DNA from: Elusimicrobiota bacterium
Lineage (GTDB): Bacteria; Elusimicrobiota; UBA8919
Length of the DNA stretch: 64,000 nt
Reading direction: 5' to 3'
Assembly (NCBI GenBank): GCA_041658185.1
Contig: JBBAAR010000001.1
Location: 122,400-186,399, forward strand
Shown: one piece after another, positions 29,448-52,746 of the stretch
How the letters are laid out: each line of letters opens with the position of its first letter
How positions within the stretch are numbered: the first letter of the stretch is position 1
Notes under the pieces: generated by a model
Told to the model about the DNA's origin: nothing
Databases searched by the model: none
Seen by the model: only the letters and a program-made list of their open reading frames with translations
Program-made: the position numbers and the translations under genes

Positions 29448-29510
29448 TGTTTCTTAACTTCCTTTCACTTTCTTCCACTTTCCTTCACTTCCTTTCACTG
29501 TCCCATCACT
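29345..29510. repeat. repeat family A copy (arms about 60 bp apart)
   Basis: gtgaacaaaagtgaacaaaagtgaacaaaagtgaacaaaaataaatgc ... cctttcactttcttccactttccttcacttcctttcactg. Confidence 0.7.
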
Positions 29511-36378: not shown

Positions 36379-36464
36379 TGCGGGTTTCTTAAAACGACAA
36401 TTTATATTTTTGTGCTTTTTTACTTTTTCCGTTTTTCACTTTACCGTCGGTAGAACAAAACCTA

Positions 36465-36525
36465 TTCAACTGGTTTCGCAACTACGGAAGTAGTTGAATA
36501 CTGACTCAAAAAAAATATAGCGCAA
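36465..36525. repeat. REP-like palindromic element (GTAGTTGAAT family)
   Basis: aacctattcaactggtttcgcaactacggaagtagttgaatactg, with a caactac-GGAA-gtagttg hairpin; just downstream of the 36593..37582 gene. Confidence 0.6.
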
Positions 36526-36592
36526 AGAACCAATCACATTTTTATTATTTTGCTTTTGCCAAAATTAAGTATACCATAAAAATCCAATCTTG

Positions 36593-38505: not shown

Positions 38506-38605
38506 GTAAAACAAAACCTATTCAACTACTTTCGTCCCTAAAGGGATTTCCTTCGGTCACAACTACGAAACTACGGAAGTAGTTGAGTGCTTATTAAAAA
38601 AATTA
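38506..38605. repeat. REP-like palindromic element (GTAGTTGAAT family, with CCCTAAAGGGA and CTTCGGTC submotifs)
   Basis: aacctattcaactactttcgtccctaaagggatttccttcggtcacaactacgaaactacggaagtagttgagtgc. Confidence 0.65.
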
Positions 38606-39652: not shown

Positions 39653-39985
39653 TTTCTCAATTCTTTGATTATGTTTTTCTACCGCTAAAAAATACGGCTT
39701 AAGAACTTTCAATAAATCAACCGGCATTCTTCTTTCCCGTTTTGTATCTATTATTGAATAATAAATCCGGTTTTTTTCCCGCCTGTATTTTACTATATGT
39801 GCATTTTTTAATACGGTTAGATGTCTTGAAACAAGCGGCAAATTTACCCGCAATTCATAAACAATTTCAGAAACACTTGCCTCTTTTTTCTTGTACAGAA
39901 ACTTCAAAATTTTCAAACGAACAACGGAGCCCAATGTAGTAAATAATCTTGCATAATTCAAAGCATTCCTGTCAACCGTTATCAT
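39650..39985 (-). CDS. ArsR/SmtB-family winged-helix transcriptional regulator
   Basis: LKILKFLYKKKEASVSEIVYELRVNLPLVSRHLTVLKNAHIV has the HTH pattern of ArsR-type regulators. A 4-nt overlap with the upstream nuclease gene. Confidence 0.6.
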   Translation of the reverse strand: MITVDRNALNYARLFTTLGSVVRLKILKFLYKKKEASVSEIVYELRVNLPLVSRHLTVLKNAHIVKYRREKNRIYYSIIDTKRERRMPVDLLKVLKPYFLAVEKHNQRIEK

Positions 39986-41430
39986 TTTTCCCCCTTTATA
40001 ACCGCGAACTTTTCAATCGCAAAAAATGTTTTATCGGAGGTGGCCGCCTCAATTTTTAATATGTACAGACCGCTTGCAACTTTTTCACCGTCATCATTAT
40101 CACAATTCCACAAAACCTCATTATAAACACCGGGAGTTACTACCGGTGTAATTTCTCTTGCAATTTCTCCGGAAAGAGTATAGATTTTTACCGTTACCGA
40201 CGTTACATCCGAAGAAATTTCAAAACCGATTGCAGTTCTATTTTTTGCAGGCGACGGATAAACAACAACTTTATCAACCGCTTTTTTTGACGGGGTGGAA
40301 ATTGGCCCGACATTTTTGTAAATTCTCTGAAATTCCTCGTAGTACTCTTTTGCAATTCCAGTTGAATAAATTACAAGCGTATTTTCATCATTAAGTGTAT
40401 TGGCACTGTTGGACCAGTTGTGAGAACCGGTTATAACCTTTGCATTCGTAGTAAAAGGGTCAATCACTCCGAATTTGTGGTGAAGATTATAATTTATGTT
40501 GCTGGCATCGGCATTATAGGTAACATACGCGCCGGTCGAGCGAAGTTTTGCATATGTGGACTGGCTGTCGGTTTGCGTAATGTCAAAAATACCGTAGACT
40601 TCCACCCCTTGTTTCATAACATCAACAAGCGAATCGTATATTTGTGAATCATCGGAATTGGTTGTAAAACTGAACAGACAAAAACTAACTTTTTCTTTGG
40701 CACCCTGAATACTTTTTGTTCCTCCTGTTCCTTTTATTTCATTTGCAATTACTTTATTCGTTCCGCCTGTAACGGGAGTACTATATGGCGAAAAATAAAT
40801 TTTGACCTTAACACCGTTGACATATTCCGTTTTCCCGTTGTTTGATGTATTAATTACGTTAACCGCTTTTGAAGAACCAAAATGAGAAAAACCCGTTCTT
40901 AACGGCGTCCCATACATTTCAACAAATTCATTTTTGTAAATTTCAGCAACGGCAGTTGAACGAATTACAACAACATTATTATTATTTTGATATGTGTCAT
41001 TATTCGTAGGATTCCACGAACCCGTCCAGACAGACGAACCCTCAATTACACAAAATTTGTTATGAACTTGACTGCCCGATGAAGTGCGTATCTTATAAGA
41101 TGTTGTAATACTACTGGTAAATATGCTTGCATTTGTTGCATCGGCATCGCAAATAAAATAAACGGTACAGCCGCGATTTAATGCGGAATTCAAAGCGGCA
41201 ATTGCCGTTGAATTATCTATATCATAAAAAGCAGCATAAATTATTTTATTGTTTACCGAAGCCAGATAGTTTTTGAAACGGAAATCAAGTCCCGGACTGT
41301 TTGCATCGCTGGTACCGGTCGGTTTATTAAAATAGACCTCAAAACCAGGCGGGATTTCACAAAAAAGATTGGTGAAAGGAAAAAAGTAAAAGATAATAAG
41401 TAGAAAAATACTTAAAAATTTAATTTTCAT
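39982..41430 (-). CDS. secreted phospholipase-D-family (two HKD motifs) nuclease-like protein with T9SS-type C-terminal sorting domain
   Basis: HKD motif 1 is HNKFCVIEGSSVWTGSWNPTNN; HKD motif 2 is HHKFGVIDPFTTNAKVITGSHNWSNSA. Signal peptide present; C-terminus ...SGLYILKIEAATSDKTF. Confidence 0.6.
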   Translation of the reverse strand: MKIKFLSIFLLIIFYFFPFTNLFCEIPPGFEVYFNKPTGTSDANSPGLDFRFKNYLASVNNKIIYAAFYDIDNSTAIAALNSALNRGCTVYFICDADATNASIFTSSITTSYKIRTSSGSQVHNKFCVIEGSSVWTGSWNPTNNDTYQNNNNVVVIRSTAVAEIYKNEFVEMYGTPLRTGFSHFGSSKAVNVINTSNNGKTEYVNGVKVKIYFSPYSTPVTGGTNKVIANEIKGTGGTKSIQGAKEKVSFCLFSFTTNSDDSQIYDSLVDVMKQGVEVYGIFDITQTDSQSTYAKLRSTGAYVTYNADASNINYNLHHKFGVIDPFTTNAKVITGSHNWSNSANTLNDENTLVIYSTGIAKEYYEEFQRIYKNVGPISTPSKKAVDKVVVYPSPAKNRTAIGFEISSDVTSVTVKIYTLSGEIAREITPVVTPGVYNEVLWNCDNDDGEKVASGLYILKIEAATSDKTFFAIEKFAVIKGEK

Positions 41431-41454
41431 TTTGATACCTTTCCAACTATAATT

Positions 41455-41530
41455 TCAAAACTACTTTCGTACTTTCGCAACTACGAAAGTAGCGACCGTA
41501 GGGAGTCCCTTTAGGGATTGAATACCTTTT
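41455..41530. repeat. REP-like palindromic element (same family, inverted orientation)
   Basis: aaaactactttcgtactttcgcaactacgaaagtagcgaccgtagggagtccctttagggattgaatacc. Confidence 0.55.
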
Positions 41531-41538
41531 TAAAAAAA

Positions 41539-41772
41539 TTATTTTTTGTTTGAGCGACTTAACAATTCTTGCTGCAATTTTTTCACCCTATCAAGCGATT
41601 TTGACTCTGCTTTTTTGTTCGGATTAAACTCAACATCAAGCCACATGCCTTCATGCAATTTGAACTTAAACTGTTTTACCGGAATTATCATTTCGCCGCC
41701 GCCTACTATTAAAACGGCTGTTTTTCCGTCTTCTATCCTATCTATTACCGCCCGCATAAAATCCTCCGGCAA
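41539..41772 (-). CDS. small hypothetical protein (DUF3006-like)
   Basis: 77-aa ORF; AVIDRIEDGKTAVLIVGGGEM resembles the DUF3006 pattern. The match is weak. Confidence 0.3.
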   Translation of the reverse strand: MPEDFMRAVIDRIEDGKTAVLIVGGGEMIIPVKQFKFKLHEGMWLDVEFNPNKKAESKSLDRVKKLQQELLSRSNKK

Positions 41773-41787
41773 TATTTTTAAATACGA

Positions 41788-42975
41788 TTATCTGTTGCTA
41801 AATATTTGCTTGGCGTATCCGCGATAAAATGCAGAACGCTCTTCTTCGTTCGGTATTTCCTTCCTCGGAATAATTACTGCATTCTCGTTTTTTGGCACAT
41901 CAAATGACTGCTCAACAAAAAGTTTCACTATAGCGGCTGGGACCGAATAAAGCACATCAAATTTGTCTTGCTGTTTTTTACCGTTTGTAATCTCTTCCGT
42001 CCTTGTTAAAGTTCTCTGAAAATTATTTTTTATAAGTTCTATTATTTTTGCAACATTCGGCGACAATAGTGTAATGTCAATTTTGTCTACGGGAGTTGCC
42101 CAAAGATTTATGGACTTCAACTCTTTCAATTCGGCAGGGGATAATTTTACGGGTGGTTCAAAATATACAAGTTTGATTTTATACGGAATTCCCAAATATA
42201 ACGGGTCGGAATTTTCCATAGTTATCGGCGAACGATATTCCATATCTGTATTGACACCGTTATAGAAAACACTATATCCATTGTTGAGATAGCTGTCAGT
42301 CAGTTGATTAACCGACCACCAGGCAAGACAACTTTCCCAAGAACTGAAACAGGGTCCGAATTCCTTAAAAAGAAGATACCGCACATTATCGCAGGAAATA
42401 TTTATTACATTTGAAAGTTCTCTGTAAAAAGTTGATTTTCCTCCTCCGGCAGCACCTATCGGAATTATTAGAACGGGACCTTTACTGATAAGCGTTTTTT
42501 CATCCCAGTTGGAGTTATTTTTCAGAGAATATTTGATGAAATTCTCTATGTGTTTTTTCCCTTCTTCATACAATTTTGCCAAATCAAAACCGGTTATCTG
42601 TGCTTCAATAATTGCAAGGAAAGTGTTTATTATGCTATATGGATTAAGATGAAAACAATTAGAAAAATCTTTCATCCGTAAAATCGCTTCTTCAAAATCC
42701 GGCTTGTTTTTTATTAGAAAAATTCCTTTCTGAGAATTTACGGCAAAAATGGGAGAGTTGTAAAGATTTTTGGCCAGGCGCAAATTTTCAAGAATATCAC
42801 CGGAAGTAAGCGAAGCGTCAATTATATTATGAAGACATATATAAACATCTTTTTCATACAGGAGGGAGTTGTCGTTTTCAACAACATCTAATAACTTTTT
42901 AAGACCGTATCTATCGGCAACTTTTTTCAATAAATTCCTGGTTTCACTGTGTCTCTTAAATTCTCTTTTTTCCAT
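41788..42975 (-). CDS. P-loop NTPase/kinase-family protein with N-terminal domain of unknown function
   Basis: Walker A box IIPIGAAGGGKST in the C-terminal half. No close family is recognisable by eye. Confidence 0.4.
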   Translation of the reverse strand: MEKREFKRHSETRNLLKKVADRYGLKKLLDVVENDNSLLYEKDVYICLHNIIDASLTSGDILENLRLAKNLYNSPIFAVNSQKGIFLIKNKPDFEEAILRMKDFSNCFHLNPYSIINTFLAIIEAQITGFDLAKLYEEGKKHIENFIKYSLKNNSNWDEKTLISKGPVLIIPIGAAGGGKSTFYRELSNVINISCDNVRYLLFKEFGPCFSSWESCLAWWSVNQLTDSYLNNGYSVFYNGVNTDMEYRSPITMENSDPLYLGIPYKIKLVYFEPPVKLSPAELKELKSINLWATPVDKIDITLLSPNVAKIIELIKNNFQRTLTRTEEITNGKKQQDKFDVLYSVPAAIVKLFVEQSFDVPKNENAVIIPRKEIPNEEERSAFYRGYAKQIFSNR

Positions 42976-43149
42976 TTAATCTCCCCCCAATCTTTATATT
43001 AAAATTTATTTTCAAGCGAACGAGCGAAAAGTAAACTTATTTGTTTTTCGAGCGACCGCAAGAAGTCCCTTCAGGGGCGAGCGCTGAAAACAAAGGGTTT
43101 AATACCCTTTATAAAAAACCAAAAATCAATAAAATCAAAAATTACAATT

Positions 43150-43215
43150 ACCGATGATAAAACCCTAAACTACTTTCGTAGTTGCGTAGTTGCGAAAGTA
43201 GTTGAATAGTTTTTA
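43150..43215. repeat. REP-like palindromic element (same family)
   Basis: aaaccctaaactactttcgtagttgcgtagttgcgaaagtagttgaatag. Upstream, at 43040-43120, are the additional palindromes cccttcagggg and aaagggtttaataccctttat. Confidence 0.6.
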
Positions 43216-43221
43216 AAAAAA

Positions 43222-44256
43222 TTATTCCCCTATTTTCAGCGCATTGATTTCTGTTTTAAATATCTTGTTCAACTCCGCCTTATTTTTGTCCGGAATAAAC
43301 AGGGCATTAATCCCATTATGTATTATTTTTATCAAATCGGATACATCAAAACCAAGACGGTTAACCGCCACATTATATTCATTTGTAAGGTCAATTCCGC
43401 TAACCGATCTATCATCGGTATTTATAGTAACTATTACGCCGTTATCATAAAATTTTTTTATAGGATGGCTTTCAAAATCAGCGACAACATGCGTTTGAAT
43501 ATTTGATGTAATACACATTTCAAGCGGGATTTCTTTTTCTTTTATTTCTTCCATAAGATTTGTGTCATCTATTAAATGTACGCCGTGACCTATGCGGCTT
43601 GCCCCAAGTTCCACTGCTTCTCTTATACTTTCGGCACCGGCTGATTCACCAGCATGCACGGTAAAAGGAATTTTATATTTTTTAGCAAGGACAAACGGCT
43701 CGGCGAAATCCCTTGTCGGATATCTTGTTTCATCACCCGCCAAATCCAGCGCAACAATACCGTAATCTGCGTATTTTTTTGCCAATTCTACCGTTGTGAT
43801 ATTCGCTTCTTCAGGATTTGAACGATAACAGCATAAAATCAAGCCGACGCCAATTTTGAAATCACGGCTGCCTTGACGTAATCCGTCAAGGCAAATTTTT
43901 ACGACATCGGTTATCTTAAAATTTTCGGATGCCTGAAGAAACGGTGCAAAACGCACTTCAAGATATTTAATGTTTTCAGAAGCGGCATCTTCACAAAGTT
44001 CATAACCGATTTTTTCCACAGCGTACGGAGTTTGCAAGAGCGGGTAAAAAAATTCAAACGCCTGCAAAAAATCGGTTAAACTCCGGCAATCAGGGGATAC
44101 CTGAACATACTTATTCAATTCTTCAACATTTTCCGTCGGCAGTTTTACCTTTTGCTTTTTGGCAAGTTCTAAAATGGTTGATGTCCGAACGGAACCGTCC
44201 AAATGACAATGCAGTTCAACTTTCGGAATTTTTTTAAGAACTTCTGTTGATACCAT
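43222..44256 (-). CDS. add: adenosine deaminase
   Basis: LHCHLDGSVR N-terminal signature, HAGESAG, and a C-terminal INTDD-type motif (VTINTDDRS). Confidence 0.85.
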   Translation of the reverse strand: MVSTEVLKKIPKVELHCHLDGSVRTSTILELAKKQKVKLPTENVEELNKYVQVSPDCRSLTDFLQAFEFFYPLLQTPYAVEKIGYELCEDAASENIKYLEVRFAPFLQASENFKITDVVKICLDGLRQGSRDFKIGVGLILCCYRSNPEEANITTVELAKKYADYGIVALDLAGDETRYPTRDFAEPFVLAKKYKIPFTVHAGESAGAESIREAVELGASRIGHGVHLIDDTNLMEEIKEKEIPLEMCITSNIQTHVVADFESHPIKKFYDNGVIVTINTDDRSVSGIDLTNEYNVAVNRLGFDVSDLIKIIHNGINALFIPDKNKAELNKIFKTEINALKIGE

Positions 44257-44258
44257 TA

Positions 44259-44942
44259 TTATTCCTCGTCATCCGGCTCGGGCAAAGCCTCTTCCGTTTT
44301 TGGAGATTTTTTCTTTTTTATCGTCTCTTTTTTATCTTTCGTTTCAACCTTTTGACCTTTCAATTTAGCAATTTTTTCTTTTGCATTTTCTGCTTTTTTG
44401 GAATCAGGGAAGTTATTTATAACTTTCTGATATTCCTCTATCGCCCTTTTATTATTTTTTATTTTTTCATAGCAATCACCTAACTCAAACTGTGCATTAG
44501 CCGCTTTTTTTGAATCAGGATATTTATCTATGACGGTCTGGTATGTTTTAATCGCACTCTCATATTTCTTCTGTTTTTTCTGGTAAATACCGCCAATCTG
44601 CAAAATTGCATCAACTGCTTTTTTTCTTTCCGGAAATTTATCTATCACCAGTTGGAACTCCTTAATTGCAACATCATAATCTTTCATTTTTGAATAACAG
44701 GTCCCTATATTATACTGCGCATCAGACGATTCTTTCGCTTCGGGATATTTTTTCAAAAAATTCTGATATGTTTTTATGGCTTCCGAATACTGCTTTTCTT
44801 TCTGCATCGCTTTTGCTTTCTGAAACAAATCATCTGTTTCGCAAAACAAAATGCCGCAGGAAAAAATTGCCAATACCAACCCTGCCAAATACTTTTTTCC
44901 GCACAAAGCGGATTTCACTTCGCTCAACACCGCGTTCAACAT
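44259..44942 (-). CDS. tetratricopeptide-repeat lipoprotein (YbgF-like TPR), Lys-rich C-terminal tail
   Basis: Signal peptide plus Cys, four or five TPR-like repeats (AQYNIGTCYSKMKDYDVAIKEFQ...), and a KKKKSPK tail. Confidence 0.55.
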   Translation of the reverse strand: MLNAVLSEVKSALCGKKYLAGLVLAIFSCGILFCETDDLFQKAKAMQKEKQYSEAIKTYQNFLKKYPEAKESSDAQYNIGTCYSKMKDYDVAIKEFQLVIDKFPERKKAVDAILQIGGIYQKKQKKYESAIKTYQTVIDKYPDSKKAANAQFELGDCYEKIKNNKRAIEEYQKVINNFPDSKKAENAKEKIAKLKGQKVETKDKKETIKKKKSPKTEEALPEPDDEE

Positions 44943-44944
44943 TT

Positions 44945-45592
44945 TTACCTCCCGTCCCGCTTCAGCGAGATCACTTTTTTTATTTCAAACATGATTTTTT
45001 CTATCTTGGGAATAAGATGGTCTATGCCCGGAGCATCGGTATCTATAACGAGGACCGGTATTTTTGATTTTTTCAATAACTCGTCTTTATCATCGTGAAG
45101 ATATGTTTTTTCCATTTCCTCCCGGGAAACCAGATGGTCGTCGGTACCCTTGGCAAGAGCTGCCTTATGCCTTGCAACATTTCTCTCCCAACAGGTCTCA
45201 AATGAACAATCGGAATAAATAATTATTGCATTGTCCAGGATTTTTTCTGAAAAATTTTTCATCGACGCCGCATAATTCGGACGGGAAAACTCTATGAAAA
45301 CAACGCGTTCATCTTTTTGCAACCCGCGAACATCCTTATCAACCTGCCGTAAAATTTCATCCCAAATACTATTATCGGTTACTAAATATCCGCCGTCGGG
45401 CGTTTTGCGGCATCTTTTCCATTTGCCTGTTTTTTCATCTTCCTGAAAAATATTCCACAACTTCGGAAAATCGTCAACTCTTAAAAAATCGTTGCAGATT
45501 TTTTCCTGACTTAATTTAGCGGTTATCCGGCGAAAGATTTCCGATTTGCCGCAGCCCGGCCGACCTAAAAGAAAAACATTTAAACAATTCAT
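44945..45592 (-). CDS. P-loop kinase-like ATP-binding protein (paralog of 48814..49446)
   Basis: Walker A FLLGRPGCGKS at the N-terminus; about 210 aa; its start overlaps the stop of the downstream TIM-barrel gene. Confidence 0.5.
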   Translation of the reverse strand: MNCLNVFLLGRPGCGKSEIFRRITAKLSQEKICNDFLRVDDFPKLWNIFQEDEKTGKWKRCRKTPDGGYLVTDNSIWDEILRQVDKDVRGLQKDERVVFIEFSRPNYAASMKNFSEKILDNAIIIYSDCSFETCWERNVARHKAALAKGTDDHLVSREEMEKTYLHDDKDELLKKSKIPVLVIDTDAPGIDHLIPKIEKIMFEIKKVISLKRDGR

Positions 45593-46560
45593 TAACCCAT
45601 AACCTCCCTTACATATTCCGCTTCCTTTTCCATTAACTCCCTTGTATTTAATAGTTCGTCAACTTCTCTCACCGCCGTTTCCATCACGACAATCTCAACT
45701 TTTTTGTGTCTAAAAATCTCAAAAAGTTTTTTAAGATTTTCTTTTTTGAGAAGGCCCGCCTGATAATGCAAAGGCGGATGAAATTTTTTAACCACGGGTA
45801 TATAATCGTTAAGATGGACCTGAGAGATATATTTATCGGGGATAGTCTCCATTATTTGCTCCGGCGGATTGGGGACTTGCTTGCCAAAATCTGCCCGAGT
45901 GAACCAGTGACCTATATCAAAACAGAATTTTACATTTTTTCCTTTCGGATCTATCATCTCAAGAATTTCAAGACATTCTTCAACATCAACCAGAATTGAA
46001 TCAAATGCGGTATTATTCTCAAGATGAAACATTATTCCCTTTTTTTGTGCGTACGGCACAAGTTCTTTGAGAGAGCGGATAAGGTTTTCTCTGACCAGTT
46101 TCCTGTAAAGTCCGACTGCCTGATAAAAAGGAACGGAACCGGGGTGCATAACGACATTTATACAGTTCAATTTCGCGGCAAAATCAATATATCTCTTTAA
46201 TAAATCAACCGCCATCTCACGGTCCTCTTTCTGAAATGCGCAGACGGCACTGCCGATATATGTGTACGGAAGATGGAAAGAAAGCGTGATATTTCTTTTT
46301 TCTGCTTCTTTTTTTGCTTTGGAAATTTCGGATGACGGCATTTGAAGATACGGATTTGGAATTCCTCCGTCCAACTCAACATGGTCAAGTGAAACCTCCG
46401 ACGCAACCTTAACCTGGTTAATAATATCCTTTTTGGCTTTATCCTGCACTTTGGCATCCATATCGGCGACTGTAAGCGTACCGGCTTTCAACTGCTTTTT
46501 TTCGGCTTCTGTTAAAAACGATGTGTTCAACAAATTTGTGAAATCTCTTCCTATTCTCAT
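45592..46560 (-). CDS. xylose-isomerase-like TIM-barrel protein of the endonuclease IV (AP endonuclease family 2) type
   Basis: Motifs in Nfo-like order: LSFHLPYTYIGS, VVMHPGS, MFHLENN, FCFDIGHWF, VHLNDY. Confidence 0.5.
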   Translation of the reverse strand: MRIGRDFTNLLNTSFLTEAEKKQLKAGTLTVADMDAKVQDKAKKDIINQVKVASEVSLDHVELDGGIPNPYLQMPSSEISKAKKEAEKRNITLSFHLPYTYIGSAVCAFQKEDREMAVDLLKRYIDFAAKLNCINVVMHPGSVPFYQAVGLYRKLVRENLIRSLKELVPYAQKKGIMFHLENNTAFDSILVDVEECLEILEMIDPKGKNVKFCFDIGHWFTRADFGKQVPNPPEQIMETIPDKYISQVHLNDYIPVVKKFHPPLHYQAGLLKKENLKKLFEIFRHKKVEIVVMETAVREVDELLNTRELMEKEAEYVREVMG

Positions 46561-46624
46561 AATACCTCCGTTAATTTTTTTCTGGATTTATTAAATCCGG
46601 CAATCGGCAAAAACCATGTTTCTG

Positions 46625-46690
46625 ACGGTAAAATCAATTCTATTCAACTACTTTCGTAGTTGCGAAACTAGTTGAATACCTTAAAAAAAT
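46625..46690. repeat. REP-like palindromic element (same family)
   Basis: tctattcaactactttcgtagttgcgaaactagttgaatacc, with competing caactac/gtagttg and tattcaact/agttgaata stems. Confidence 0.65.
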
Positions 46691-47547
46691 CAAATGTATT
46701 TTTCAACCAATAATTCAAGTTTTTTCTTTGTTTTCGGATTTATCGCTTTTGGGGACGTCATTATAGCATATTTTAGCGCATCTTTGCAAGAACAATTTCT
46801 TTCGCCCTGTAATTTTACAATAACACTCTTCACAAGTTTTTTTACATTTGTCGTTAAAACTTTCATATTCGCCATAACCTTTTCCGCCGAGACCTCTTCG
46901 CCCTCTTTCCAGACATCGTAATCGGTCGCCAAAGAAACGGTAGCAAAACATATTTCGGCTTCACGGGCAAGTTTTGCCTCGGGCAAATTTGTCATCCCTA
47001 TAACTAAAAAACCGAGCGAGCGATAAACTTTTGATTCCGCTTTCGTAGAAAATTGAGGTCCCTCAATACAAACATAGGTGCCGCCGTCATGAACTGGAAG
47101 GGCAAGCGATTTCGCCGTTTCAATTAAAATTTTTCTTAACTGCGGGCAATACGGTTCGGCAAAACCTACATGCGCAACAATACCATCGCCGAAAAATGTA
47201 GAAGGTCTTGATTTTGTCCTGTCAAAAAGTTGGTCGGGAATAACAAAATCCCTCGGTTTTATTTCTTCTCTCAGCGAACCGCAGGCGGAAATGGATATAA
47301 TTTTTTCAACTCCGATTTTTTTAAGAGCAAAAATGTTGGCCCGCGAGTTCACTTCCGACGGCATAATTTTGTGTCCCACGGCATGACGCGGAAGAAACGC
47401 AACTTTCACGCCTTCAAGTTCGCCGATACGAATTTTATCGGACGGCAAACCGAAAGGAGTTTTTATTTCCAGCTCTTTCAGTATTTTTATTCCTTCAATT
47501 TCGTAGACACCGCTTCCGCCGATAATTGCGATTTTTACTTCATTCAT
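46690..47547 (-). CDS. mtnP: S-methyl-5'-thioadenosine phosphorylase / purine nucleoside phosphorylase
   Basis: VKIAIIGGSGVYE, LPRHAVGHKIMPSEVNSRANIFALKKIGVEKIISISACGSLREEIKPRDFVIPDQ: strong match to the MTAP/PNP family. Confidence 0.8.
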   Translation of the reverse strand: MNEVKIAIIGGSGVYEIEGIKILKELEIKTPFGLPSDKIRIGELEGVKVAFLPRHAVGHKIMPSEVNSRANIFALKKIGVEKIISISACGSLREEIKPRDFVIPDQLFDRTKSRPSTFFGDGIVAHVGFAEPYCPQLRKILIETAKSLALPVHDGGTYVCIEGPQFSTKAESKVYRSLGFLVIGMTNLPEAKLAREAEICFATVSLATDYDVWKEGEEVSAEKVMANMKVLTTNVKKLVKSVIVKLQGERNCSCKDALKYAIMTSPKAINPKTKKKLELLVEKYI

Positions 47548-48827
47548 TACTTTTTACCTCCGGTAAGATTTGAATAAACTTCAAAAAAATCCTTCATAGT
47601 ATTAAAAAGTGAAACACCCGAAGATCTAGTTCTAAACTCTGCCGCCATCGGGTGACCGCCGCCGGAAATTATACCTTTATTGCCGAATTTTGAAACAAGT
47701 TTTTCAGTCATCTGCGAAGCAATATTGCCGCAGTGAATTTTATCGGTGTTTGCGCGGAAAGAAATATGTACGCCGTTTTTTTCGCCGAGCCAGTTAAACA
47801 TAATAAGTACCGCCGGATTGCCCAGTTCGTAAAGTTTTACCGAGCCGACCATCGGCATCAAGGAGACATTGCTTCCCATAAAAATATACACACCGGCACC
47901 GTCAACTTTGTCCAGAAGCGCCGCATTATCAAACATATTTTTTGATTTATTCCAGTCATCAAGAAAACATTGATATATTTTCCCGGCCAAATCTTTACGG
48001 GGCATTTGTCCCACAAATTCGTCAAGCGAACCGTAATCTTTTGCGTTGAGAGCAAGAAGCGTTTCAAATGCAAAGTTAACCTGTTTTTTGTTTTTTAATT
48101 CGGGGATATTATCGTTATAAAAATACTGAAATCCGCCTCCTGATAGTGCAAAATAAAATTCTCCTATCTGGTTTAATGCCGTTGTTTTTTCTCTCTGATT
48201 AACTTCAAACATCGTCGGACGGGATGATATTTTTTTTACAAGGTTCGGAAATTTTTTTGCCGCTTCGTCATAAAACTGTTTCGCCAGCGGCGCTACAATA
48301 TCGGTCGCCGGTTCAATCGCCCAATCGCCTTTTAATCCTATAAGCGTCAAAAAATCATCAAGGTCTTCTCTTAAACCAAGCGCCTCGGATATCATATTGC
48401 ATAAAATCGCAGCCGAGCAAAAAGTGTAATTCGGCACGGAAGGATTGAGAATTACGCACCTTTCAGGCAACGCCCCTATTAAAGGATGATGGTCAATAAT
48501 AACGACATCTTTTATCAAATCCACATATTCGTTGTAATAGCCCATTGTTGCCTTATCAATTATAAAAAGTATGTCATATTTTTTTTGTTTGAGTTCTTCT
48601 TCAATGCGAAATTTTTCTAATTCCATAGTTTCGGGAATTTTTACGGTTATATCGGCACCGAGTTTTTTCAGCATTCTAAAGATTATTGCACCGGATGTCA
48701 GCCCGTCCGGATCATCGTGAAAAAAAACAAGGCATTTTTTGCCTTTTACATTTTTCAATAATTCAACCGTTTTTTTGAAACCTTCCGATTTTTCCAATTG
48801 CTCTTTTACAAATTCAGAATAACTCAT
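47547..48827 (-). CDS. DHH/DHHA1-family phosphoesterase (NrnA-like oligoribonuclease/pAp phosphatase or RecJ-like)
   Basis: VFFHDDPDGLTSGA, IIDHHP (DHH) and ISGGGHPMAAEF (DHHA1 GGGH). Confidence 0.7.
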   Translation of the reverse strand: MSYSEFVKEQLEKSEGFKKTVELLKNVKGKKCLVFFHDDPDGLTSGAIIFRMLKKLGADITVKIPETMELEKFRIEEELKQKKYDILFIIDKATMGYYNEYVDLIKDVVIIDHHPLIGALPERCVILNPSVPNYTFCSAAILCNMISEALGLREDLDDFLTLIGLKGDWAIEPATDIVAPLAKQFYDEAAKKFPNLVKKISSRPTMFEVNQREKTTALNQIGEFYFALSGGGFQYFYNDNIPELKNKKQVNFAFETLLALNAKDYGSLDEFVGQMPRKDLAGKIYQCFLDDWNKSKNMFDNAALLDKVDGAGVYIFMGSNVSLMPMVGSVKLYELGNPAVLIMFNWLGEKNGVHISFRANTDKIHCGNIASQMTEKLVSKFGNKGIISGGGHPMAAEFRTRSSGVSLFNTMKDFFEVYSNLTGGKK

Positions 48828-49446
48828 TTATCACCTCTTTTTCAATCTGCTTTCTTAAATTTTCCATACCAGTTTTTCCGGAAACGGTACTGTCAATAAC
48901 AATCGTTTTCGCCGGAACAATTTTCATTAACTCTTTTTCTGATTTTAGATATACCTGCTCATAATCGTCGGTTTTGTAATATGTTTTCATCAAATCCAAC
49001 GGAACTATATGGTCGTCGTGCCCGTCCTTTTTTGCTTTCTGAAATCTTGCGACATTTCTTTTGTAACATTCCTCTAAAGTGCTGTAAAGATACAGGATAA
49101 TGGAATCATCCAGAACATCTTTTGTGAAATTTTCAAATGCATGTTGATAATTATCACGCGCAAATTCTATGAAAATAATTTTTTTGTCAGCTTTTTCTTT
49201 TTTTACCAATTTACACAAATCACTAAGCGCCTCGTCAACAACCGTCCAGTCGGTAACCGCGAAACCTCCGTCTTTCAGGATATGCCTTTTGAACTCTTTG
49301 TCTCTGGCAAGAATTTCTTTAAGCGTTAAAAAATCGTCAAGCCGCGGGGCATAAATTTCTTTTTTTTCCAAAATTTCTTTTATTATTTTATAAACCACAG
49401 ATTTTCCGCAACCCGGTCTGCCCAATAAAAAAACAAAATGTTTCAC
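48814..49446 (-). CDS. P-loop kinase-like ATP-binding protein (paralog of 44945..45592)
   Basis: FLLGRPGCGKS Walker A; same length and architecture as 44945..45592; overlaps both neighbours. Confidence 0.5.
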   Translation of the reverse strand: MKHFVFLLGRPGCGKSVVYKIIKEILEKKEIYAPRLDDFLTLKEILARDKEFKRHILKDGGFAVTDWTVVDEALSDLCKLVKKEKADKKIIFIEFARDNYQHAFENFTKDVLDDSIILYLYSTLEECYKRNVARFQKAKKDGHDDHIVPLDLMKTYYKTDDYEQVYLKSEKELMKIVPAKTIVIDSTVSGKTGMENLRKQIEKEVINELF

Positions 49447-50429
49447 TTAAAAATCTCCTTTACATATTTCATCTCTGCATCTATTATGTTTTTTCTGTCT
49501 TTTACCTGTTCAAGCATTTTGAATGCCGTTTCAAGTAAAATTAATTCCGGATTTTTCGTTTTAAGAATTTTCCAGTAATTCTCAAGATTTTCTCTCTTTA
49601 AAGGACCTTTCGTTTGATTCAAGGGCGGGTGGAATGTGAACTGCTTCTGCGGGTCCCATGATGACGGAACAAAATCGTTCAGGTGAACCTCGCATATAAA
49701 ATCATCGGGAATAATTTTGAGGATTTCTTCCGGGTTTTTGGGAATTTCTTTGCCTTTTTCGGCGCGGGTGAACCAGTGACCGATATCAAAATTAAAATAA
49801 ATTTTAGCACCGTTGGAACGCACCGCTTTTACAACTTCTATGCAATCTTCCGGCTCAACGAATAAACTATCAAATGAAACATTATTTTCAATGTGGAGTT
49901 TAAGCCCTTTATCATTGGCATATTTTCCGATCTCCGTGAACGATTTTACGACCGAGTTAAAAAACTGTTTCATGTAAATATCTGAAATCATATAAAACGG
50001 AGCGGTGCCGGGATGCATTACAAGATATTTGGCACCGACATCAGACGCAAAATCAACATAAACATTTTGGAGTTTTACGGCGCACGAACGGTCCAATTCC
50101 TGCAAACTTGAAATAGAAGAACCGGCATTGGAATAAGATAAATGAACCGACAGTGAAATACCGTTATCCTCGGCGAATTTTTTTATTTTTTTCCGGCTCT
50201 CTTTTGAAAACTCCGGATACGGGTTCGGCACGTCGCAGTCAAGTTCTACATGGTCAAGACCGAGTTCTTTCGCTTTTTTTATCTGAAACTCAACATTTTT
50301 CTTGAACTTAACAAGCCCGAGCGCGTTCATAGAAAAAAGCGACAAAGTTCCGTTTAGGATTTTTTCCTGCTCCCCTTTTTCCAGCACATCAAATACAAAA
50401 GTGTTAGTAAAGTTTCTGCCGATTTTCAT
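49443..50429 (-). CDS. endonuclease-IV-like xylose-isomerase-fold TIM-barrel protein (paralog of 45592..46560)
   Basis: LSVHLSYSNAGSS, LVMHPGTAP, LHIENN, FNFDIGHWF and VHLNDF, the same motif series as its paralog. Confidence 0.5.
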   Translation of the reverse strand: MKIGRNFTNTFVFDVLEKGEQEKILNGTLSLFSMNALGLVKFKKNVEFQIKKAKELGLDHVELDCDVPNPYPEFSKESRKKIKKFAEDNGISLSVHLSYSNAGSSISSLQELDRSCAVKLQNVYVDFASDVGAKYLVMHPGTAPFYMISDIYMKQFFNSVVKSFTEIGKYANDKGLKLHIENNVSFDSLFVEPEDCIEVVKAVRSNGAKIYFNFDIGHWFTRAEKGKEIPKNPEEILKIIPDDFICEVHLNDFVPSSWDPQKQFTFHPPLNQTKGPLKRENLENYWKILKTKNPELILLETAFKMLEQVKDRKNIIDAEMKYVKEIFK

Positions 50430-50513
50430 TAGGACTCCTTAACTATATTTTTATTTTTTTGACAACTTTTTCACTACTGAAAAAGTTACGATTTTTGAAT
50501 TTTAACAAATTTA

Positions 50514-50542
50514 TTTGATAAAGTCAAGTTTTTTTAGTAAAA
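50514..50542 (+). promoter_or_regulatory. candidate sigma70-like promoter for the second comEC (TTGATA-17-TAAAAT)
   Basis: ttgataaagtcaagtttttttagtaaaat lies 11 nt upstream of the ATG at 50554, in a divergent intergenic region. Confidence 0.25.
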
Positions 50543-50553
50543 TATATTATATT

Positions 50554-52746
50554 ATGAAAAAACCGCTGATAGCAATAACAGTTTCCTACATACTAATTAT
50601 CGTGCTTATGGAAATGCTCGGTATTCTTAATAAAATTCCTGCCGGCAATATCGCAAGACAATCAACCGGAGACACCGCAGTTATCACAGGTAAAATTATA
50701 TCCGAGCCGGAAGAAAGCGACAGTAAAACATCTTTTATTCTAAAGACAACAAAAATTAACGGCACAGACACGAAAGGTAATGTTTTGGTGAATTATTATG
50801 CTGAAGAAAATAATTTTTCCTACGGCGATATCGTTGAAATAACCGGAAAATTTTTCAGACCGGATACGCCATCGGTTCCAGGAACTTTTGATTATAAAAA
50901 ATATTTATTCAGAAAAAGAATTTATGCATTGTTGTCGGTTTTTAAGAATTATGACATTCAGATTATAGACAGAAAACCGTTTTTTATCCGGCAGTTATCA
51001 TTGAAATTGCGGCAACAGATTCTTGAATCTTATAAAAAAAATCTCCTTCCGCAACAAGCGGCAGTTTTATCCGGCATAACTATCGGGGAAAAATCCGGGC
51101 TTACAACTTACATCCAGAAAATTTTTATTGACGCGGGCGTAATGCATGTCCTGGTGGTCAGCGGTTCAAATGTGGCATTCGTATCGGTAATTTTTTTCTG
51201 GATATTCAGAAGTATTCTACGGTTAAAAAAGAAAATCTCACTCGGCCTTTTAATCCCCATTATCCTGCTTTATGCGATGATTACCGGCGCCAATCCTCCT
51301 GTTTTACGGGCAACAATAATGACGCTTATCGTTATTTTTGCCCTGCTTTTATCAAGAAACGCCGATATTTATCAGGACATATTTTTGGCGGCGCTTATAA
51401 TTTTGATTTACAATCCGCTTACATTATTTGAAGCCGGTTTCCAGATGTCTTTTGCGGCAACACTCGGTATAATTTATTTTTTTCCGATTTTTCAGTCGGC
51501 TATGAAAATTCACAAACTTCCGAAATTTTGCAACTGGTTTTTAAGCGTTTTTCTCGCCTCGTTTTCCGCACAAATTGCAATCGCACCGTTACTGGCTTAT
51601 TATTTCAACAAGGTATCCTTAATAGCGCTTGTCTCAAATCTTGTGATATTGCCGATGATCGGGATTTCGCTCGGCGCAGGTTTTGCTTTGTATTTTGCAA
51701 GTTTAATCGGAACGCAGTTGTTATTTATCGTATCAAAACTTACGGGTGGAGTGGTGTCTGTTATAACATATCTGGTTGATATGTTCGCAAATGTTCCTTA
51801 TTCAACGGTAAGAATACCCACGCCCTCAATATATTTTATACTGCTTTTTTACATAATCGTCGTCGGGCTTCCGAAAATTAAAAATTATATCTGGAAACGA
51901 ATCGTTATTTTGTCATTCGGAATTTTGATATTCCTGCCTGTATTGAATTATTTTTCAGAAAATAAAAAAAATCTGGAAATTACATTTATAGATGTAGGAC
52001 TTGGCGATGATGTCTTGTGCGAATTTCCCGACGGCTCAAATATGCTTATTGACGGCGGCGGCGATTGGGGAGCAAAATATGATATCGGTGAAACGGTTAT
52101 TTCTCCGTTCTTGTGGAATAAAGGCATTATGAAAATTGACACCATAGTCCTTACCCATCCGCATATCAACCATTTTCAGGGACTTATTGCTGTTTGTAAT
52201 AATTTCAAAATTAAAAAATTTATTACGACCGGTGAGGTTTCCAAAGAAGACGAATATCTGGAATTGATGAAAATTTTAAGAAAAAAGAAAGTTATTGTTG
52301 AAAAAATATCTGCAGGTGTTCATTTTAATATCGGAAATATATCTGTTGATGTCTTAAATCCTGAAAAGATTCTGCCGGAAACCGACGACAACTCAATAGT
52401 TATGAAACTTTCGTATAATGATTTTTCAATTTTATTCTGCGGCGACATTACCCGAAAAACACAAAACATTCTTACTGAAAAAAATATTAATTCAACTGTT
52501 CTGTTTGTTCCAAGCCATGGAAAAAAGAAACTGCTTTTGGATTTCTTGTTAACAATTTCCCCGGAATATGCTATAATATCAACCGATATGCCGGCATCAT
52601 CAGTCCTTGAACAACTTAACTGGTGTAAATTGTTCACCACATCCGCATCGGGGACTTTAACCATTTACACCAACGGACGATATTGGAAAATAAGGGAAAC
52701 GATTAAAGATATACCCATGGATATGATAATTCTGGATTGGGAGTAA
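50554..52746 (+). CDS. comEC: second ComEC/Rec2 DNA internalization channel (full length)
   Basis: DUF4131-like N-terminus, GVMHVLVVSGSNVAFV competence motif, and C-terminal MBL domain (ITFIDVGLGDDVLCEFPDGSNMLIDGGG, THPHINHFQG). The track start at 50515 is TTG; the ATG at 50554 (MKKPLIAI) is preferred. Confidence 0.8.
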   Translation: MKKPLIAITVSYILIIVLMEMLGILNKIPAGNIARQSTGDTAVITGKIISEPEESDSKTSFILKTTKINGTDTKGNVLVNYYAEENNFSYGDIVEITGKFFRPDTPSVPGTFDYKKYLFRKRIYALLSVFKNYDIQIIDRKPFFIRQLSLKLRQQILESYKKNLLPQQAAVLSGITIGEKSGLTTYIQKIFIDAGVMHVLVVSGSNVAFVSVIFFWIFRSILRLKKKISLGLLIPIILLYAMITGANPPVLRATIMTLIVIFALLLSRNADIYQDIFLAALIILIYNPLTLFEAGFQMSFAATLGIIYFFPIFQSAMKIHKLPKFCNWFLSVFLASFSAQIAIAPLLAYYFNKVSLIALVSNLVILPMIGISLGAGFALYFASLIGTQLLFIVSKLTGGVVSVITYLVDMFANVPYSTVRIPTPSIYFILLFYIIVVGLPKIKNYIWKRIVILSFGILIFLPVLNYFSENKKNLEITFIDVGLGDDVLCEFPDGSNMLIDGGGDWGAKYDIGETVISPFLWNKGIMKIDTIVLTHPHINHFQGLIAVCNNFKIKKFITTGEVSKEDEYLELMKILRKKKVIVEKISAGVHFNIGNISVDVLNPEKILPETDDNSIVMKLSYNDFSILFCGDITRKTQNILTEKNINSTVLFVPSHGKKKLLLDFLLTISPEYAIISTDMPASSVLEQLNWCKLFTTSASGTLTIYTNGRYWKIRETIKDIPMDMIILDWE

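What the first reader, a model, noticed from the sequence alone, without database searches (positions are those of the whole stretch)
44945..50429. Duplicated cassette of an Endo-IV-like TIM barrel plus a P-loop kinase, flanking a DHH phosphoesterase and MTA phosphorylase, next to adenosine deaminase
The pairs 45592..46560 + 44945..45592 and 49443..50429 + 48814..49446 are paralogous. The TIM barrels share the Nfo/AP-endonuclease-2 motif series (HLPY/HLSY, MHPG, HxENN, FDIGHWF, HLNDY). The kinases share FLLGRPGCGKS. Each pair overlaps by a few nucleotides, suggesting translational coupling. A DHH/DHHA1 phosphoesterase, MtnP/PNP and Add lie between and beside them. Inference: this is an end-processing and nucleotide-dephosphorylation module, for example a 3'-phosphatase/AP-endonuclease with a 5'-kinase. 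It would feed imported DNA fragments into nucleoside salvage, or heal the ends of incoming DNA.
Basis: partly seen in the sequence, partly recalled or inferred. Interest (0 to 1): 0.65.

Follow-up and report, generated by a model that had tools for sequence, protein, structure and literature searches.

The report
Duplicated phosphoesterase-kinase pair in nucleoside-breakdown operon
An uncultivated Elusimicrobiota-like bacterium carries two old copies of an uncharacterised enzyme pair (an Endonuclease-IV-like metal enzyme plus a small kinase) inside an operon that breaks nucleic-acid fragments down to nucleosides and bases. The pair most likely edits phosphate groups on nucleotides, not on DNA ends, but its substrates are still unknown.

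Summary
All eight genes from 50429 down to 43222 lie on the minus strand and form one tightly packed operon: TIM2-KIN2-DHH-MtnP-TIM1-KIN1-TPR-Add. The two TIM barrels are 40% identical and the two kinases 38% identical. Each pair overlaps by 1 or 4 nt.

The TIM-then-kinase pair is conserved: 41 of 44 TIM genes in related loci are followed by the kinase. It occurs in Elusimicrobiota, Hydrogenedentota, Caldiserica-like MAGs and Hadarchaeota. The two genes co-diverge and were duplicated as a unit.

The neighbours are consistently nucleoside or nucleic-acid catabolism genes. They include purine, pyrimidine and uridine phosphorylases, adenosine, cytidine, cytosine and adenine deaminases, DeoB, RecJ and DHH exonucleases, a Clp1-like 5'-kinase, a dGTPase and a nucleoside ABC transporter.

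The TIM barrel keeps 8 of the 9 Endo IV metal ligands. It is not an Nfo, CbiR or ketose-epimerase family member. It also carries a roughly 30-residue longer, helical segment between strands 1 and 2 that Endo IV lacks.

The kinase is a divergent P-loop kinase with an Asp at the end of strand 2, the hydroxyl-kinase type. It is not an NMP kinase and not a PNK or Clp1 member.

Best reading (moderate confidence): a nucleotide-level 3'-phosphoesterase plus 5'-hydroxyl kinase that feeds salvage. The function is untested, and I found no description of the pair.

The parts
49443..50429 (-). TIM2: Endo IV-like (PF01261) metal-dependent TIM barrel, cassette type 2.
   Evidence: ORF. PF01261 at 93.0 bits. 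40% identical to TIM1. Ligand motifs HLSY, MHPG, HIENN, FDIGHWF, HLNDF, FHPP and LETA are in the translation.
48814..49446 (-). KIN2: divergent P-loop kinase, cassette type 2. Its GTG start overlaps the TIM2 stop by 4 nt.
   Evidence: Only sub-threshold P-loop Pfam hits.
47547..48827 (-). DHH/DHHA1 phosphoesterase, a RecJ-like core without an OB domain. Probably an exonuclease or nanoRNase.
   Evidence: PF01368 at 38.6 bits and PF02272 at 26.5 bits. Best NCBIfam hits are RecJ families, well below their cutoffs. Best PDB sequence matches are RecJ 8y30 (6e-8) and MjaRecJ2 (1e-6); a PAP phosphatase, 8a8k, scores only 5e-3.
46690..47547 (-). MtnP: MTAP-type purine nucleoside phosphorylase.
   Evidence: TIGR01694 at 325.8 bits, cutoff 274.85. 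PF01048 at 164.4 bits.
45592..46560 (-). TIM1: Endo IV-like (PF01261) metal-dependent TIM barrel, cassette type 1.
   Evidence: PF01261 at 113.7 bits. AF2 model pLDDT 95.9 with 8 strands. Invariant residues H96, H139, E181, D215, H218, H249, D252, H261 and E294. Mapping to Endo IV ligands.
44945..45592 (-). KIN1: divergent P-loop kinase, cassette type 1. Its ATG overlaps the TIM1 stop by 1 nt.
44259..44942 (-). TPR lipoprotein-like gene inserted between KIN1 and Add. Lineage-specific and probably a passenger.
   Evidence: TPR Pfam hits. Found only in the close relatives L012 and L014.
43222..44256 (-). Add: adenosine deaminase, last gene of the operon.
   Evidence: TIGR01430 at 333.7 bits, cutoff 216.55. 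It follows KIN1 in 13 of 20 type-1 cassettes.
43168..43203 (.). 16-bp-stem palindromic hairpin just downstream of Add. Candidate operon terminator.
   Evidence: This is a consensus scan only, not evidence of function.
50499..50527 (-). Sigma-70-like promoter match (TTGACT-17-TAAAAT with TG) upstream of TIM2.
   Evidence: This is a consensus scan only, not evidence of function.

Best explanation
The locus is one operon for turning nucleic-acid fragments into nucleosides, bases and ribose phosphate. It holds a RecJ-like DHH exonuclease, an MTAP-type purine nucleoside phosphorylase and adenosine deaminase. Into it are inserted two ancient paralogous copies of a two-gene module.

Proposed mechanism (inferred, not shown): the TIM protein is a small-molecule phosphoesterase with an Endo IV-like multi-metal centre. 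Like Endo IV and CbiR, it would cut a ribose-O3'-phosphate bond. Candidate substrates are 3'-NMP, 2',3'-cyclic NMP, pNp and short 5'-OH oligonucleotides. The kinase is an ATP-dependent hydroxyl kinase that would phosphorylate the 5'-OH of the resulting nucleoside or of the 3'-nucleotide.

Together they would convert non-canonical breakdown products into ordinary 5'-NMPs or nucleosides that the neighbouring enzymes can use. This is a mononucleotide-level analogue of kinase/phosphatase end-healing.

The two cassettes probably differ in substrate class. Type 1 is tied to purine enzymes.
For: Shown:
(1) The pair is a conserved unit. 41 of 44 TIM genes are followed by KIN on the same strand, mostly with a gap of -16 to +5 nt. 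TIM and KIN distances correlate (r=0.91, Mantel p=0.001). Seven related loci and the window carry both cassettes, at 38-43% and 34-39% paralog identity.
(2) The context is nucleoside or nucleic-acid catabolism in every lineage.
- MtnP lies within 3 genes upstream in 17 of 20 type-1 cassettes, and Add lies downstream in 13 of 20.
- L039 reads Ade-DeoB-PNP-PyNP-TIM2-KIN2-DHH-PUR-like-MtnP-TIM1-KIN1-Add-c5-Clp1-dGTPase. Ade, DeoB, PNP, PyNP and dGTPase each score above their NCBIfam cutoff (Ade was scanned on its L002 homologue).
- L015 adds a canonical RecJ and Cdd (cytidine deaminase Pfam on the L020 and L002 homologues).
- L011 has a Bmp-type nucleoside ABC transporter upstream.
- Archaeal-like loci have uridine phosphorylase, a cytosine-deaminase-like gene, an NDT-like gene, a dCMP/cytidine-type deaminase and a secreted purple acid phosphatase.
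(3) KIN without TIM still sits beside PNP, MtnP, Add or Cdd.
(4) No other enzyme for the nucleotide-to-nucleoside step is encoded in these operons.
(5) TIM aligns to Endo IV ligands as H96=H69, H139=H109, E181=E145, D215=D179, H218=H182, H249=H216 and E294=E261. H261 lies in the D229/H231 loop. D-tagatose 3-epimerase lacks the H69 and H109 equivalents.
(6) Family members most often hit the two phosphodiesterase models: CbiR in 32 of 35 and nfo in 27 of 35. CbiR leaves the phosphate on cobinamide, so it too releases a ribose 3'-OH.

Inferred: bond specificity, the order of the two reactions, and the purine/pyrimidine split.
Against: - There is no biochemical data for any member.
- The Endo IV ligand D229 has no counterpart.
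- A cytoplasmic source of 3'-phosphorylated nucleotides in these organisms is assumed, not shown.
- A phosphatase and a kinase working on the same nucleoside could form a futile cycle unless their positions or specificities differ.
- The purine/pyrimidine split rests on few independent loci. PyNP lies directly upstream of type 2 only in L039 and L054.
Confidence: 0.4

Rival explanations
1. Branch-point pair. TIM is a 5'-nucleotidase that converts the 5'-(d)NMPs released by the RecJ-like and DHH exonucleases into nucleosides for Add and MtnP (the catabolic branch). KIN is a nucleoside 5'-kinase that sends nucleosides back to the nucleotide pool (the salvage branch). The two paralogous cassettes differ in base or sugar class.
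Against: A 5'-nucleotidase translationally coupled to a 5'-kinase of the same substrate class would form a futile cycle. The characterised phosphoesterases of this superfamily (Endo IV, CbiR) release a sugar 3'-OH, not a 5'-OH (plus established Endo IV chemistry). TIM almost never occurs without KIN (41 of 44), which is odd for an independent catabolic enzyme.
Confidence: 0.2
2. Polynucleotide end-healing. TIM removes 3'-phosphates or cleaves abasic sites on DNA or RNA strands. KIN phosphorylates their 5'-OH ends. This prepares imported or damaged strands for RecJ-like degradation or for repair.
For: 8 of 9 Endo IV ligands are present, plus the HxxY tyrosine (Y99, equivalent to Y72). KIN has a strand-2 Asp and an RxxxR lid motif, as in T4 PNK. 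Exonucleases, a Clp1-like kinase and a PUR-like ssDNA/RNA-binding protein share the operons. ComEC is divergently adjacent in the window. Distant KIN relatives are fused to PLD-like domains.
Against: nfo scores are far below cutoff. The segment between strands 1 and 2 is about 30 residues longer than in Endo IV and forms conserved helices that contain clade-specific acidic residues. From my recollection, not verified here, the closest solved relative MJ1311 keeps the zinc ligands but lacks a DNA groove. PNK and Clp1 are not the best structural or profile matches for KIN. A genuine Clp1-like kinase co-occurs with KIN in the same operons. ComEC adjacency is not conserved beyond close relatives.
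Confidence: 0.15
3. Pentose-phosphate processing. KIN phosphorylates the common product of all the neighbouring phosphorylases, (deoxy)ribose-1-phosphate or free ribose. TIM then dephosphorylates or isomerises the bisphosphate. This would be a pentose-bisphosphate-type route or a phosphopentomutase bypass.
For: The pair sits beside purine, pyrimidine and uridine phosphorylases alike, whose only shared product is ribose-1-phosphate. The TIM fold is closest to sugar isomerases and epimerases. Ribose-1-phosphate kinases and bisphosphate routes exist in archaea (PMC9700705).
Against: Phosphopentomutase DeoB is encoded in the same operon in L039 and L002, so a bypass is unnecessary there. Known R1P kinases are PfkB-type, and a PfkB gene already lies beside TIM1 in 7 loci. 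No RuBisCO or R15P-isomerase motif was found in any locus. Two co-diverging paralogous cassettes are hard to explain for a base-free substrate. The KIN acceptor region is rich in invariant aromatic and acidic residues (F42, W46, F49, D52, D66, Y69, W77). This is unlike a bisphosphate site, though that point is an inference.
Confidence: 0.12
4. An ordinary sugar epimerase or isomerase plus a sugar kinase, like FrlC/FrlD or the Iol enzymes. It would act on a carbohydrate unrelated to nucleotides and sit in these operons by chance.
Against: All of those scores are 10-fold below the family cutoffs. The H96 and H139 ligands are absent from ketose epimerases. The nucleoside context recurs across bacterial and archaeal phyla, which excludes chance.
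Confidence: 0.06

Closest known systems
Endonuclease IV (Nfo, TIGR00587; PDB 1qtw)
   Different: nfo scores 33.4 bits against a cutoff of 129.65. D229 has no counterpart. The segment between strands 1 and 2 is about 30 residues longer and forms conserved helices. The strand-2 motif DHVELD is of the isomerase type. The genomic context is nucleoside catabolism, always paired with a kinase. No evidence of DNA binding.
CbiR cobamide-remodelling phosphodiesterase (NF041277; Akkermansia, PMC7733943)
   Same: The most consistent profile match: 32 of 35 members, best E 1.2e-11. CbiR is a small-molecule phosphodiesterase of this superfamily that releases a ribose 3'-OH. That makes it a functional precedent for a non-DNA substrate.
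   Different: The score is 44.6 bits against a cutoff of 105. No cobamide genes lie nearby in any locus. CbiR has no obligate kinase partner.
MJ1311 (PDB 3wqo), the 'D-tagatose 3-epimerase-like protein' of M. jannaschii, function unknown
   Different: Only about 24% identity. It lacks the extended helical segment after strand 1. No adjacent kinase is known. Its function is also unknown.
Ketose 3-epimerases and sugar isomerases (D-tagatose/D-psicose 3-epimerase, FrlC, IolO, Art22)
   Different: They lack the H69 and H109 equivalents that are invariant here. Profile scores are 27-38 bits against cutoffs of about 300.
P-loop hydroxyl kinases: PSTK/Kti12, gluconate and shikimate kinase, APS kinase, NRK1/uridine kinase, T4 PNK
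T4 Pnkp / Clp1-type end-healing enzymes
   Same: The same logic of pairing a 5'-kinase with a 3'-phosphoesterase. T4 Pnk also accepts 3'-NMP as a minimal substrate (my own knowledge).
   Different: The protein families differ for both activities. The two activities here are separate polypeptides. A real Clp1-like protein co-occurs with KIN.
deo-type nucleoside catabolic operons (deoCABD, add, cdd)
   Same: DeoB, DeoA-like PyNP, PNP, Add and Cdd are in the same operons.
   Different: Classical deo operons contain no TIM-KIN pair, DHH, Clp1 or dGTPase. No DeoC was found in these loci.

Membership tests
PF01261 AP_endonuc_2 / xylose-isomerase-like TIM barrel superfamily | Pfam gathering score for the domain | tested here: met
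   TIM1 scores 113.7 bits and TIM2 93.0 bits against a cutoff of 31.1. The AF2 model has 8 strands.
Endonuclease IV (Nfo) | Family profile score (TIGR00587 / PRK01060) | tested here: not met
   TIM1 scores 33.4 bits against 129.65, and TIM2 16.8 bits. No member of 35 reaches the cutoff.
Endonuclease IV (Nfo) | Nine ligands of the trinuclear metal centre (H69, H109, E145, D179, H182, H216, D229, H231, E261) | tested here: inconclusive
   Seven align unambiguously: H96, H139, E181, D215, H218, H249 and E294. H261 occupies the D229/H231 loop. No acidic counterpart of D229 exists.
Endonuclease IV (Nfo) | DNA-binding groove and AP-endonuclease or 3'-diesterase activity on DNA | not testable with these tools
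   Only indirect evidence: a longer, conserved helical segment between strands 1 and 2 that Endo IV lacks.
CbiR cobamide phosphodiesterase | Profile score NF041277, and a location among cobamide biosynthesis genes | tested here: not met
   44.6 bits against a cutoff of 105. No cobamide genes in the 79 loci or the window.
Ketose 3-epimerase (DTE/DPE/FrlC) | Profile score, and a single E-D-H-E metal site without extra His ligands | tested here: not met
   Scores are 26.7-38.1 bits against cutoffs of 300-305. Extra invariant H96 and H139 are absent in 8xix.
NMP kinase (ADK PF00406, UMP/CMP kinase) | Family profile, and the LID Arg in GRxDD | tested here: not met
   PF00406 gives E 0.047 for KIN1. 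None of 37 members hit it at E<=1e-3. The weak 1tev alignment shows GTDDH in place of GRSDDN.
Polynucleotide 5'-kinase (T4 PNK / AAA_33; Clp1 PF16575) | Family profile, closest structural match, and activity on 5'-OH strands | tested here: not met
P-loop hydroxyl kinases in general | Walker A motif, Asp at the end of strand 2, lid arginines | tested here: met
   GRPGCGKS, D40/D41 after strand 35-40, and R137/R141 are invariant.
Deoxynucleoside kinase PF01712 | Family profile | tested here: inconclusive
   The C-terminal half scores 19.9 bits against a cutoff of 27. 9 of 37 members hit at E<=1e-3. One Hadarchaeota member is precomputed as 'dNK (weak)'.
MTAP (S-methyl-5'-thioadenosine phosphorylase) | TIGR01694 cutoff | tested here: met
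   325.8 bits against 274.85.
Adenosine deaminase | TIGR01430 cutoff | tested here: met
   333.7 bits against 216.55.
DHH/DHHA1 phosphoesterases (RecJ / NrnA group) | DHH and DHHA1 domains; RecJ equivalog score | tested here: inconclusive
   Both domains score above the Pfam cutoffs (38.6 vs 28.1; 26.5 vs 25.9). The RecJ equivalog model scores 58.8 bits against 396.9, so it is not met.
Known anti-phage defence systems (PADLOC) and phage families (PHROGs) | Any significant model hit | tested here: not met
   Only marginal P-loop hits at E>=5e-5 for the kinases and nothing for the TIM barrels or DHH. No PHROG hits.

The most novel reading that the evidence does not exclude
The TIM-KIN pair would be a previously undescribed salvage route. 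It would relocate the phosphate of 3'-nucleotides or 2',3'-cyclic nucleotides to the 5' position, either as Np -> N -> pN or as Np -> pNp -> pN. Such nucleotides come from metal-independent RNases or PLD-type nucleases. The route would have purine- and pyrimidine-specific versions. It would let nutrient-poor, uncultivated bacteria and archaea reuse nucleotides that standard salvage enzymes cannot touch. It would also define a new small-molecule clade of the Endo IV superfamily and a new P-loop kinase family.
Probability: 0.25. Interest if true: 0.7.

Novelty: new variant of a known kind. Interest (0 to 1): 0.5.

Why it matters
Both proteins belong to known superfamilies, but neither reaches any curated family model. 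I found no paper describing the pair. The kinase family is small: 747 representatives at E<=1e-3 among 1.84 billion proteins.

The module is conserved and duplicated, and it sits at the heart of nucleoside and nucleic-acid catabolic operons in several uncultivated phyla. These organisms are thought to live partly on scavenged nucleic acids.

Assigning its chemistry would fill a gap in metabolic reconstructions of these organisms: how nucleotides enter nucleoside catabolism or salvage. It would also add a third small-molecule-type function to the Endo IV/CbiR branch. If it turns out to be a plain nucleotidase plus nucleoside kinase, the finding is useful annotation rather than a surprise.

Tried and rejected
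- **Phosphopentomutase-bypass idea (R1P -> R1,5P2 -> R5P).** Downgraded because DeoB lies in the same operon in L039 and L002.
- **RuBisCO and R15P-isomerase motifs in the loci.** None found.
- **Riboswitch or other RNA element that might name a ligand.** Nothing in window 41000-51500 at E<=1, and nothing but tRNAs in nine related loci.
- **Defence-system or phage origin.** No meaningful PADLOC or PHROG hits. Only one weak plasmid hit and no phage hit for KIN1.
- **Literature.** Searches for MJ1311, CbiR/AP endonuclease 2, R1P kinase, Clp1/DHH RNA repair and Endo IV/nucleotidase/nucleoside kinase found no description of this pair. The MJ1311 structure paper is not held.
- **ORF395 as a Clp1 equivalent.** No similarity and no PDB relatives.
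- **Clade-specific residues.** These differ mostly in the TIM segment between strands 1 and 2 (D33/S, D35/N, Q39/L) but gave no unambiguous specificity call.
- **afdb50 fold library.** Unavailable.
- **Model coordinates.** Not exposed, so metal geometry and pocket size could not be inspected.

Full report
**Observation.** On the minus strand, the window carries a tightly packed gene row:
- TIM2 49443-50429
- KIN2 48814-49446
- DHH 47547-48827
- MtnP 46690-47547
- TIM1 45592-46560
- KIN1 44945-45592
- a TPR lipoprotein-like gene 44259-44942
- Add 43222-44256

TIM1 and TIM2 are 40% identical (E 1e-95). KIN1 and KIN2 are 38% identical (E 2e-40). The TIM1 stop and KIN1 start share one base (TAATG), and the TIM2 stop and KIN2 start share four (GTGA). 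KIN2/DHH and DHH/MtnP also overlap. A promoter-like site lies upstream of TIM2, and a 16-bp-stem hairpin lies just after Add (consensus matches only). Pfam and NCBIfam confirm PF01261 for both TIM barrels, DHH plus DHHA1, an MTAP-type phosphorylase and adenosine deaminase. The only slip is that TIM2 reads HLNDF, not HLNDY.

**Origin.** The exact TIM1 protein is encoded on a 197,627-bp ENA metagenome contig. The closest named homologues (75-80% identity) come from Elusimicrobiota MAGs.

**Is the pairing conserved?** Genome and metagenome scans gave 79 related loci.
- After ORF calling and clustering, 41 of 44 TIM genes with enough downstream sequence are followed on the same strand by KIN, mostly overlapping or within 5 nt.
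- Conversely, 42 of 67 KIN genes are preceded by TIM. The kinase can therefore stand alone, but the TIM barrel almost never does.
- TIM and KIN pairwise distances correlate (r=0.91, Mantel p=0.001).
- Seven related loci and the window carry both cassettes, at similar paralog identities (38-43% and 34-39%). The duplication is therefore old and copied the pair as a unit.
- The pair occurs in Elusimicrobiota, Hydrogenedentota, Caldiserica-labelled and unclassified bacterial MAGs, and Hadarchaeota.

**Context.** The neighbours are overwhelmingly enzymes of nucleoside and nucleic-acid breakdown.
- Type-1 cassettes have MtnP within three genes upstream in 17 of 20 cases and Add downstream in 13 of 20.
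- The richest operon is L039: adenine deaminase, phosphopentomutase DeoB, PunA-type PNP, pyrimidine-nucleoside phosphorylase, TIM2, KIN2, DHH, a PUR-like ssDNA/RNA-binding protein, MtnP, TIM1, KIN1, Add, a 133-aa protein (c5), a Clp1-like P-loop protein and a dGTP triphosphohydrolase. The named enzymes are above their NCBIfam cutoffs, with adenine deaminase scanned on its L002 homologue.
- L015 adds a canonical RecJ and cytidine deaminase.
- L011 has a Bmp-type nucleoside ABC transporter upstream and a microcompartment locus downstream.
- Archaeal-like single-copy pairs lie beside uridine phosphorylase, a BtpA-family protein, a nucleoside-deoxyribosyltransferase-like protein, a cytosine-deaminase-like amidohydrolase, a dCMP/cytidine-type deaminase, a histidine phosphatase and a secreted purple acid phosphatase.
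- Kinases without a TIM partner still sit next to PNP, MtnP, Add or Cdd.
- In L054, a DEDD exonuclease is inserted between TIM2 and KIN2.

None of these operons encodes a recognisable enzyme for the nucleotide-to-nucleoside step.

**The TIM barrel.** The AF2 model is confident (pLDDT 95.9) and shows eight strands. About 54 residues separate strand 1 from strand 2, against about 20 in Endo IV, and this longer segment forms conserved helices.
- The sequence is more telling. Residues invariant across 35 diverse members include H96, Y99, H139, E181, D215, H218, H249, D252, H261 and E294.
- Alignments were made to S. aureus, T. maritima and E. coli Endo IV. The E. coli sequence was verified against 1qtw. 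These alignments place H96 at H69, H139 at H109, E181 at E145, D215 at D179, H218 at H182, H249 at H216 and E294 at E261.
- In the D229/H231 loop, only H261 is invariant. H265 is conserved in type 1. No acidic counterpart of D229 exists.
- D-tagatose 3-epimerase lacks the H69 and H109 equivalents.
- At family level, members most often hit the two phosphodiesterase models (CbiR 32 of 35, nfo 27 of 35). They also hit fructoselysine 3-epimerase (26 of 35). All scores are far below the cutoffs.

The protein is thus a separate clade with an Endo IV-like metal site on an isomerase-like scaffold, as in its nearest solved relative MJ1311 (E 9.5e-15). From memory only, the MJ1311 paper noted conserved Endo IV zinc ligands without a DNA groove; I could not retrieve it. 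CbiR shows that this superfamily includes small-molecule phosphodiesterases that release a ribose 3'-OH.

**The kinase.** The AF2 model is confident (pLDDT 94.3).
- Invariant residues are the Walker A motif, R38-x-D40-D41-F42 at the end of strand 2, E101-F-x-R104 after strand 3, and R137-N-V-x-R141 in the lid.
- No curated family is reached. Members hit AAA_18, AAA_33 and AAA_17, with some hitting dNK, KTI12 or the uridine-kinase family. None hits ADK.
- An Asp at the end of strand 2 is where hydroxyl-directed P-loop kinases carry their catalytic base (my own knowledge of those families). I therefore read KIN as a hydroxyl kinase, not an NMP kinase and not a PNK or Clp1 member.
- A profile search of 1.84 billion representatives found only 747 relatives. 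Some distant ones are fused to TIR/DUF4062 and PLD-like domains. This may indicate other roles for the fold, but it does not bear directly on this operon.

**Mechanism.**

Shown:
- A conserved, co-duplicated phosphoesterase-like plus kinase pair is embedded in nucleoside and nucleic-acid catabolic operons.
- DeoB co-occurs with it in two of those operons.
- A genuine Clp1-like kinase and exonucleases also co-occur with it.

Inferred:
- TIM hydrolyses a ribose-3'-phosphate ester on a mononucleotide or very short oligonucleotide.
- KIN phosphorylates the 5'-OH.
- Together they would convert 3'-phosphorylated or 5'-OH breakdown products into 5'-NMPs or nucleosides for the neighbouring enzymes.

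I give this 0.4.

Rivals:
- A 5'-nucleotidase plus nucleoside kinase branch point (0.2).
- Pentose-phosphate processing (0.12, weakened by DeoB in the same operon and by the lack of RuBisCO or R15P-isomerase motifs).
- An unrelated sugar epimerase plus sugar kinase (0.06).

**Other checks.** There is no riboswitch. There are no defence or phage family hits. The kinase is essentially absent from plasmids and phages. No literature on the pair was found.

**Verdict.** This is an uncharacterised variant of known enzyme kinds. Interest is moderate, and biochemical tests would be straightforward.

Noticed in passing
L011:9735-11390; L004:6302-8028; L039:11645-13291; L045:12249-13940 (not in the window): A conserved protein of about 140 aa (cluster c5, 13 loci) is always followed by a Clp1-like P-loop protein of about 410 aa (PF16575, 9 loci). 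c5 has only weak PUA/HAS-barrel-like hits. The two recur directly downstream of KIN or Add. They may be a bacterial/archaeal 5'-OH polynucleotide kinase module.
   Followed up: partly
window 41788-42975 (-): ORF395 has an unknown N-terminal half and a PNK-like P-loop (GAAGGGKST ... ISCDNVR). It lies downstream of Add and is conserved only in close relatives (L012, L014). It has no Pfam, NCBIfam, PDB or PADLOC family and no similarity to the Clp1-like protein.
   Followed up: partly
window 39982-41430 (-): A secreted two-domain PLD-like (PLDc_2) protein with a FlgD-Ig / Por secretion tail, likely an extracellular nuclease or phosphodiesterase. PLD-like genes also follow Add in six other loci (cluster c11).
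   Followed up: partly
P0293, P0364, P0352, P0269, P0288 (representative-library hits, not in the window): Distant relatives of the kinase are C-terminal domains of 430-600-aa proteins. Their N-terminal parts are TIR/DUF4062-like and PLD-like. The P0293 N-terminus matches the PADLOC candidate PDC-S60 (3e-37). This may be a conflict-system use of the same kinase fold.
   Followed up: partly
window 50515-52746 (+): ComEC (DUF4131 + Competence + Lactamase_B) is transcribed divergently from TIM2. The arrangement is shared with the close relatives L012 and L063; a ComEC-like gene is four genes from KIN in the distant locus L020.
   Followed up: partly
window 29506-38496 (-): Two adjacent metallo-beta-lactamase-fold genes (36593-37582 and 37579-38496), a PorV-like gene (38603-39532) and a 2290-aa surface protein (29506-36378). 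The surface protein has fn3/CHU_C/FlgD-Ig domains and a faint purple-acid-phosphatase N domain. Together with the PLD protein, this suggests an extracellular nucleic-acid or phosphate scavenging region.
   Followed up: no
L011:12513-16978; L004:9847-13495: A bacterial microcompartment locus lies immediately downstream of the nucleoside cluster. It contains BMC shell proteins, triose-phosphate isomerase, PTAC, acetate kinase, EutN and aldehyde dehydrogenase. It resembles sugar-phosphate-utilising BMC loci.
   Followed up: no
L015:2093-4318: A canonical RecJ (TIGR00644, 520.8 bits) carries an inserted DnaQ-like DEDD exonuclease domain at residues about 210-385.
   Followed up: no
L054:1806-2456: A DnaQ-family 3'-5' exonuclease gene is inserted between TIM2 and KIN2. 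This is one of only three cases where the pair is interrupted.
   Followed up: no
L071-L076 (e.g. L073:9029-10594): Distant kinase homologues (27-36% identity) occur as tandem duplicates. They lie next to a 700-aa regulator-like protein, a sigma-factor-like protein and a Rho-like ATPase, not next to nucleoside genes. This branch probably has a different role.
   Followed up: no
window 46561-46689: A 129-nt gap separates MtnP and TIM1. In seven related loci, a PfkB-family kinase gene occupies this position. No Rfam element was found in the gap.
   Followed up: partly
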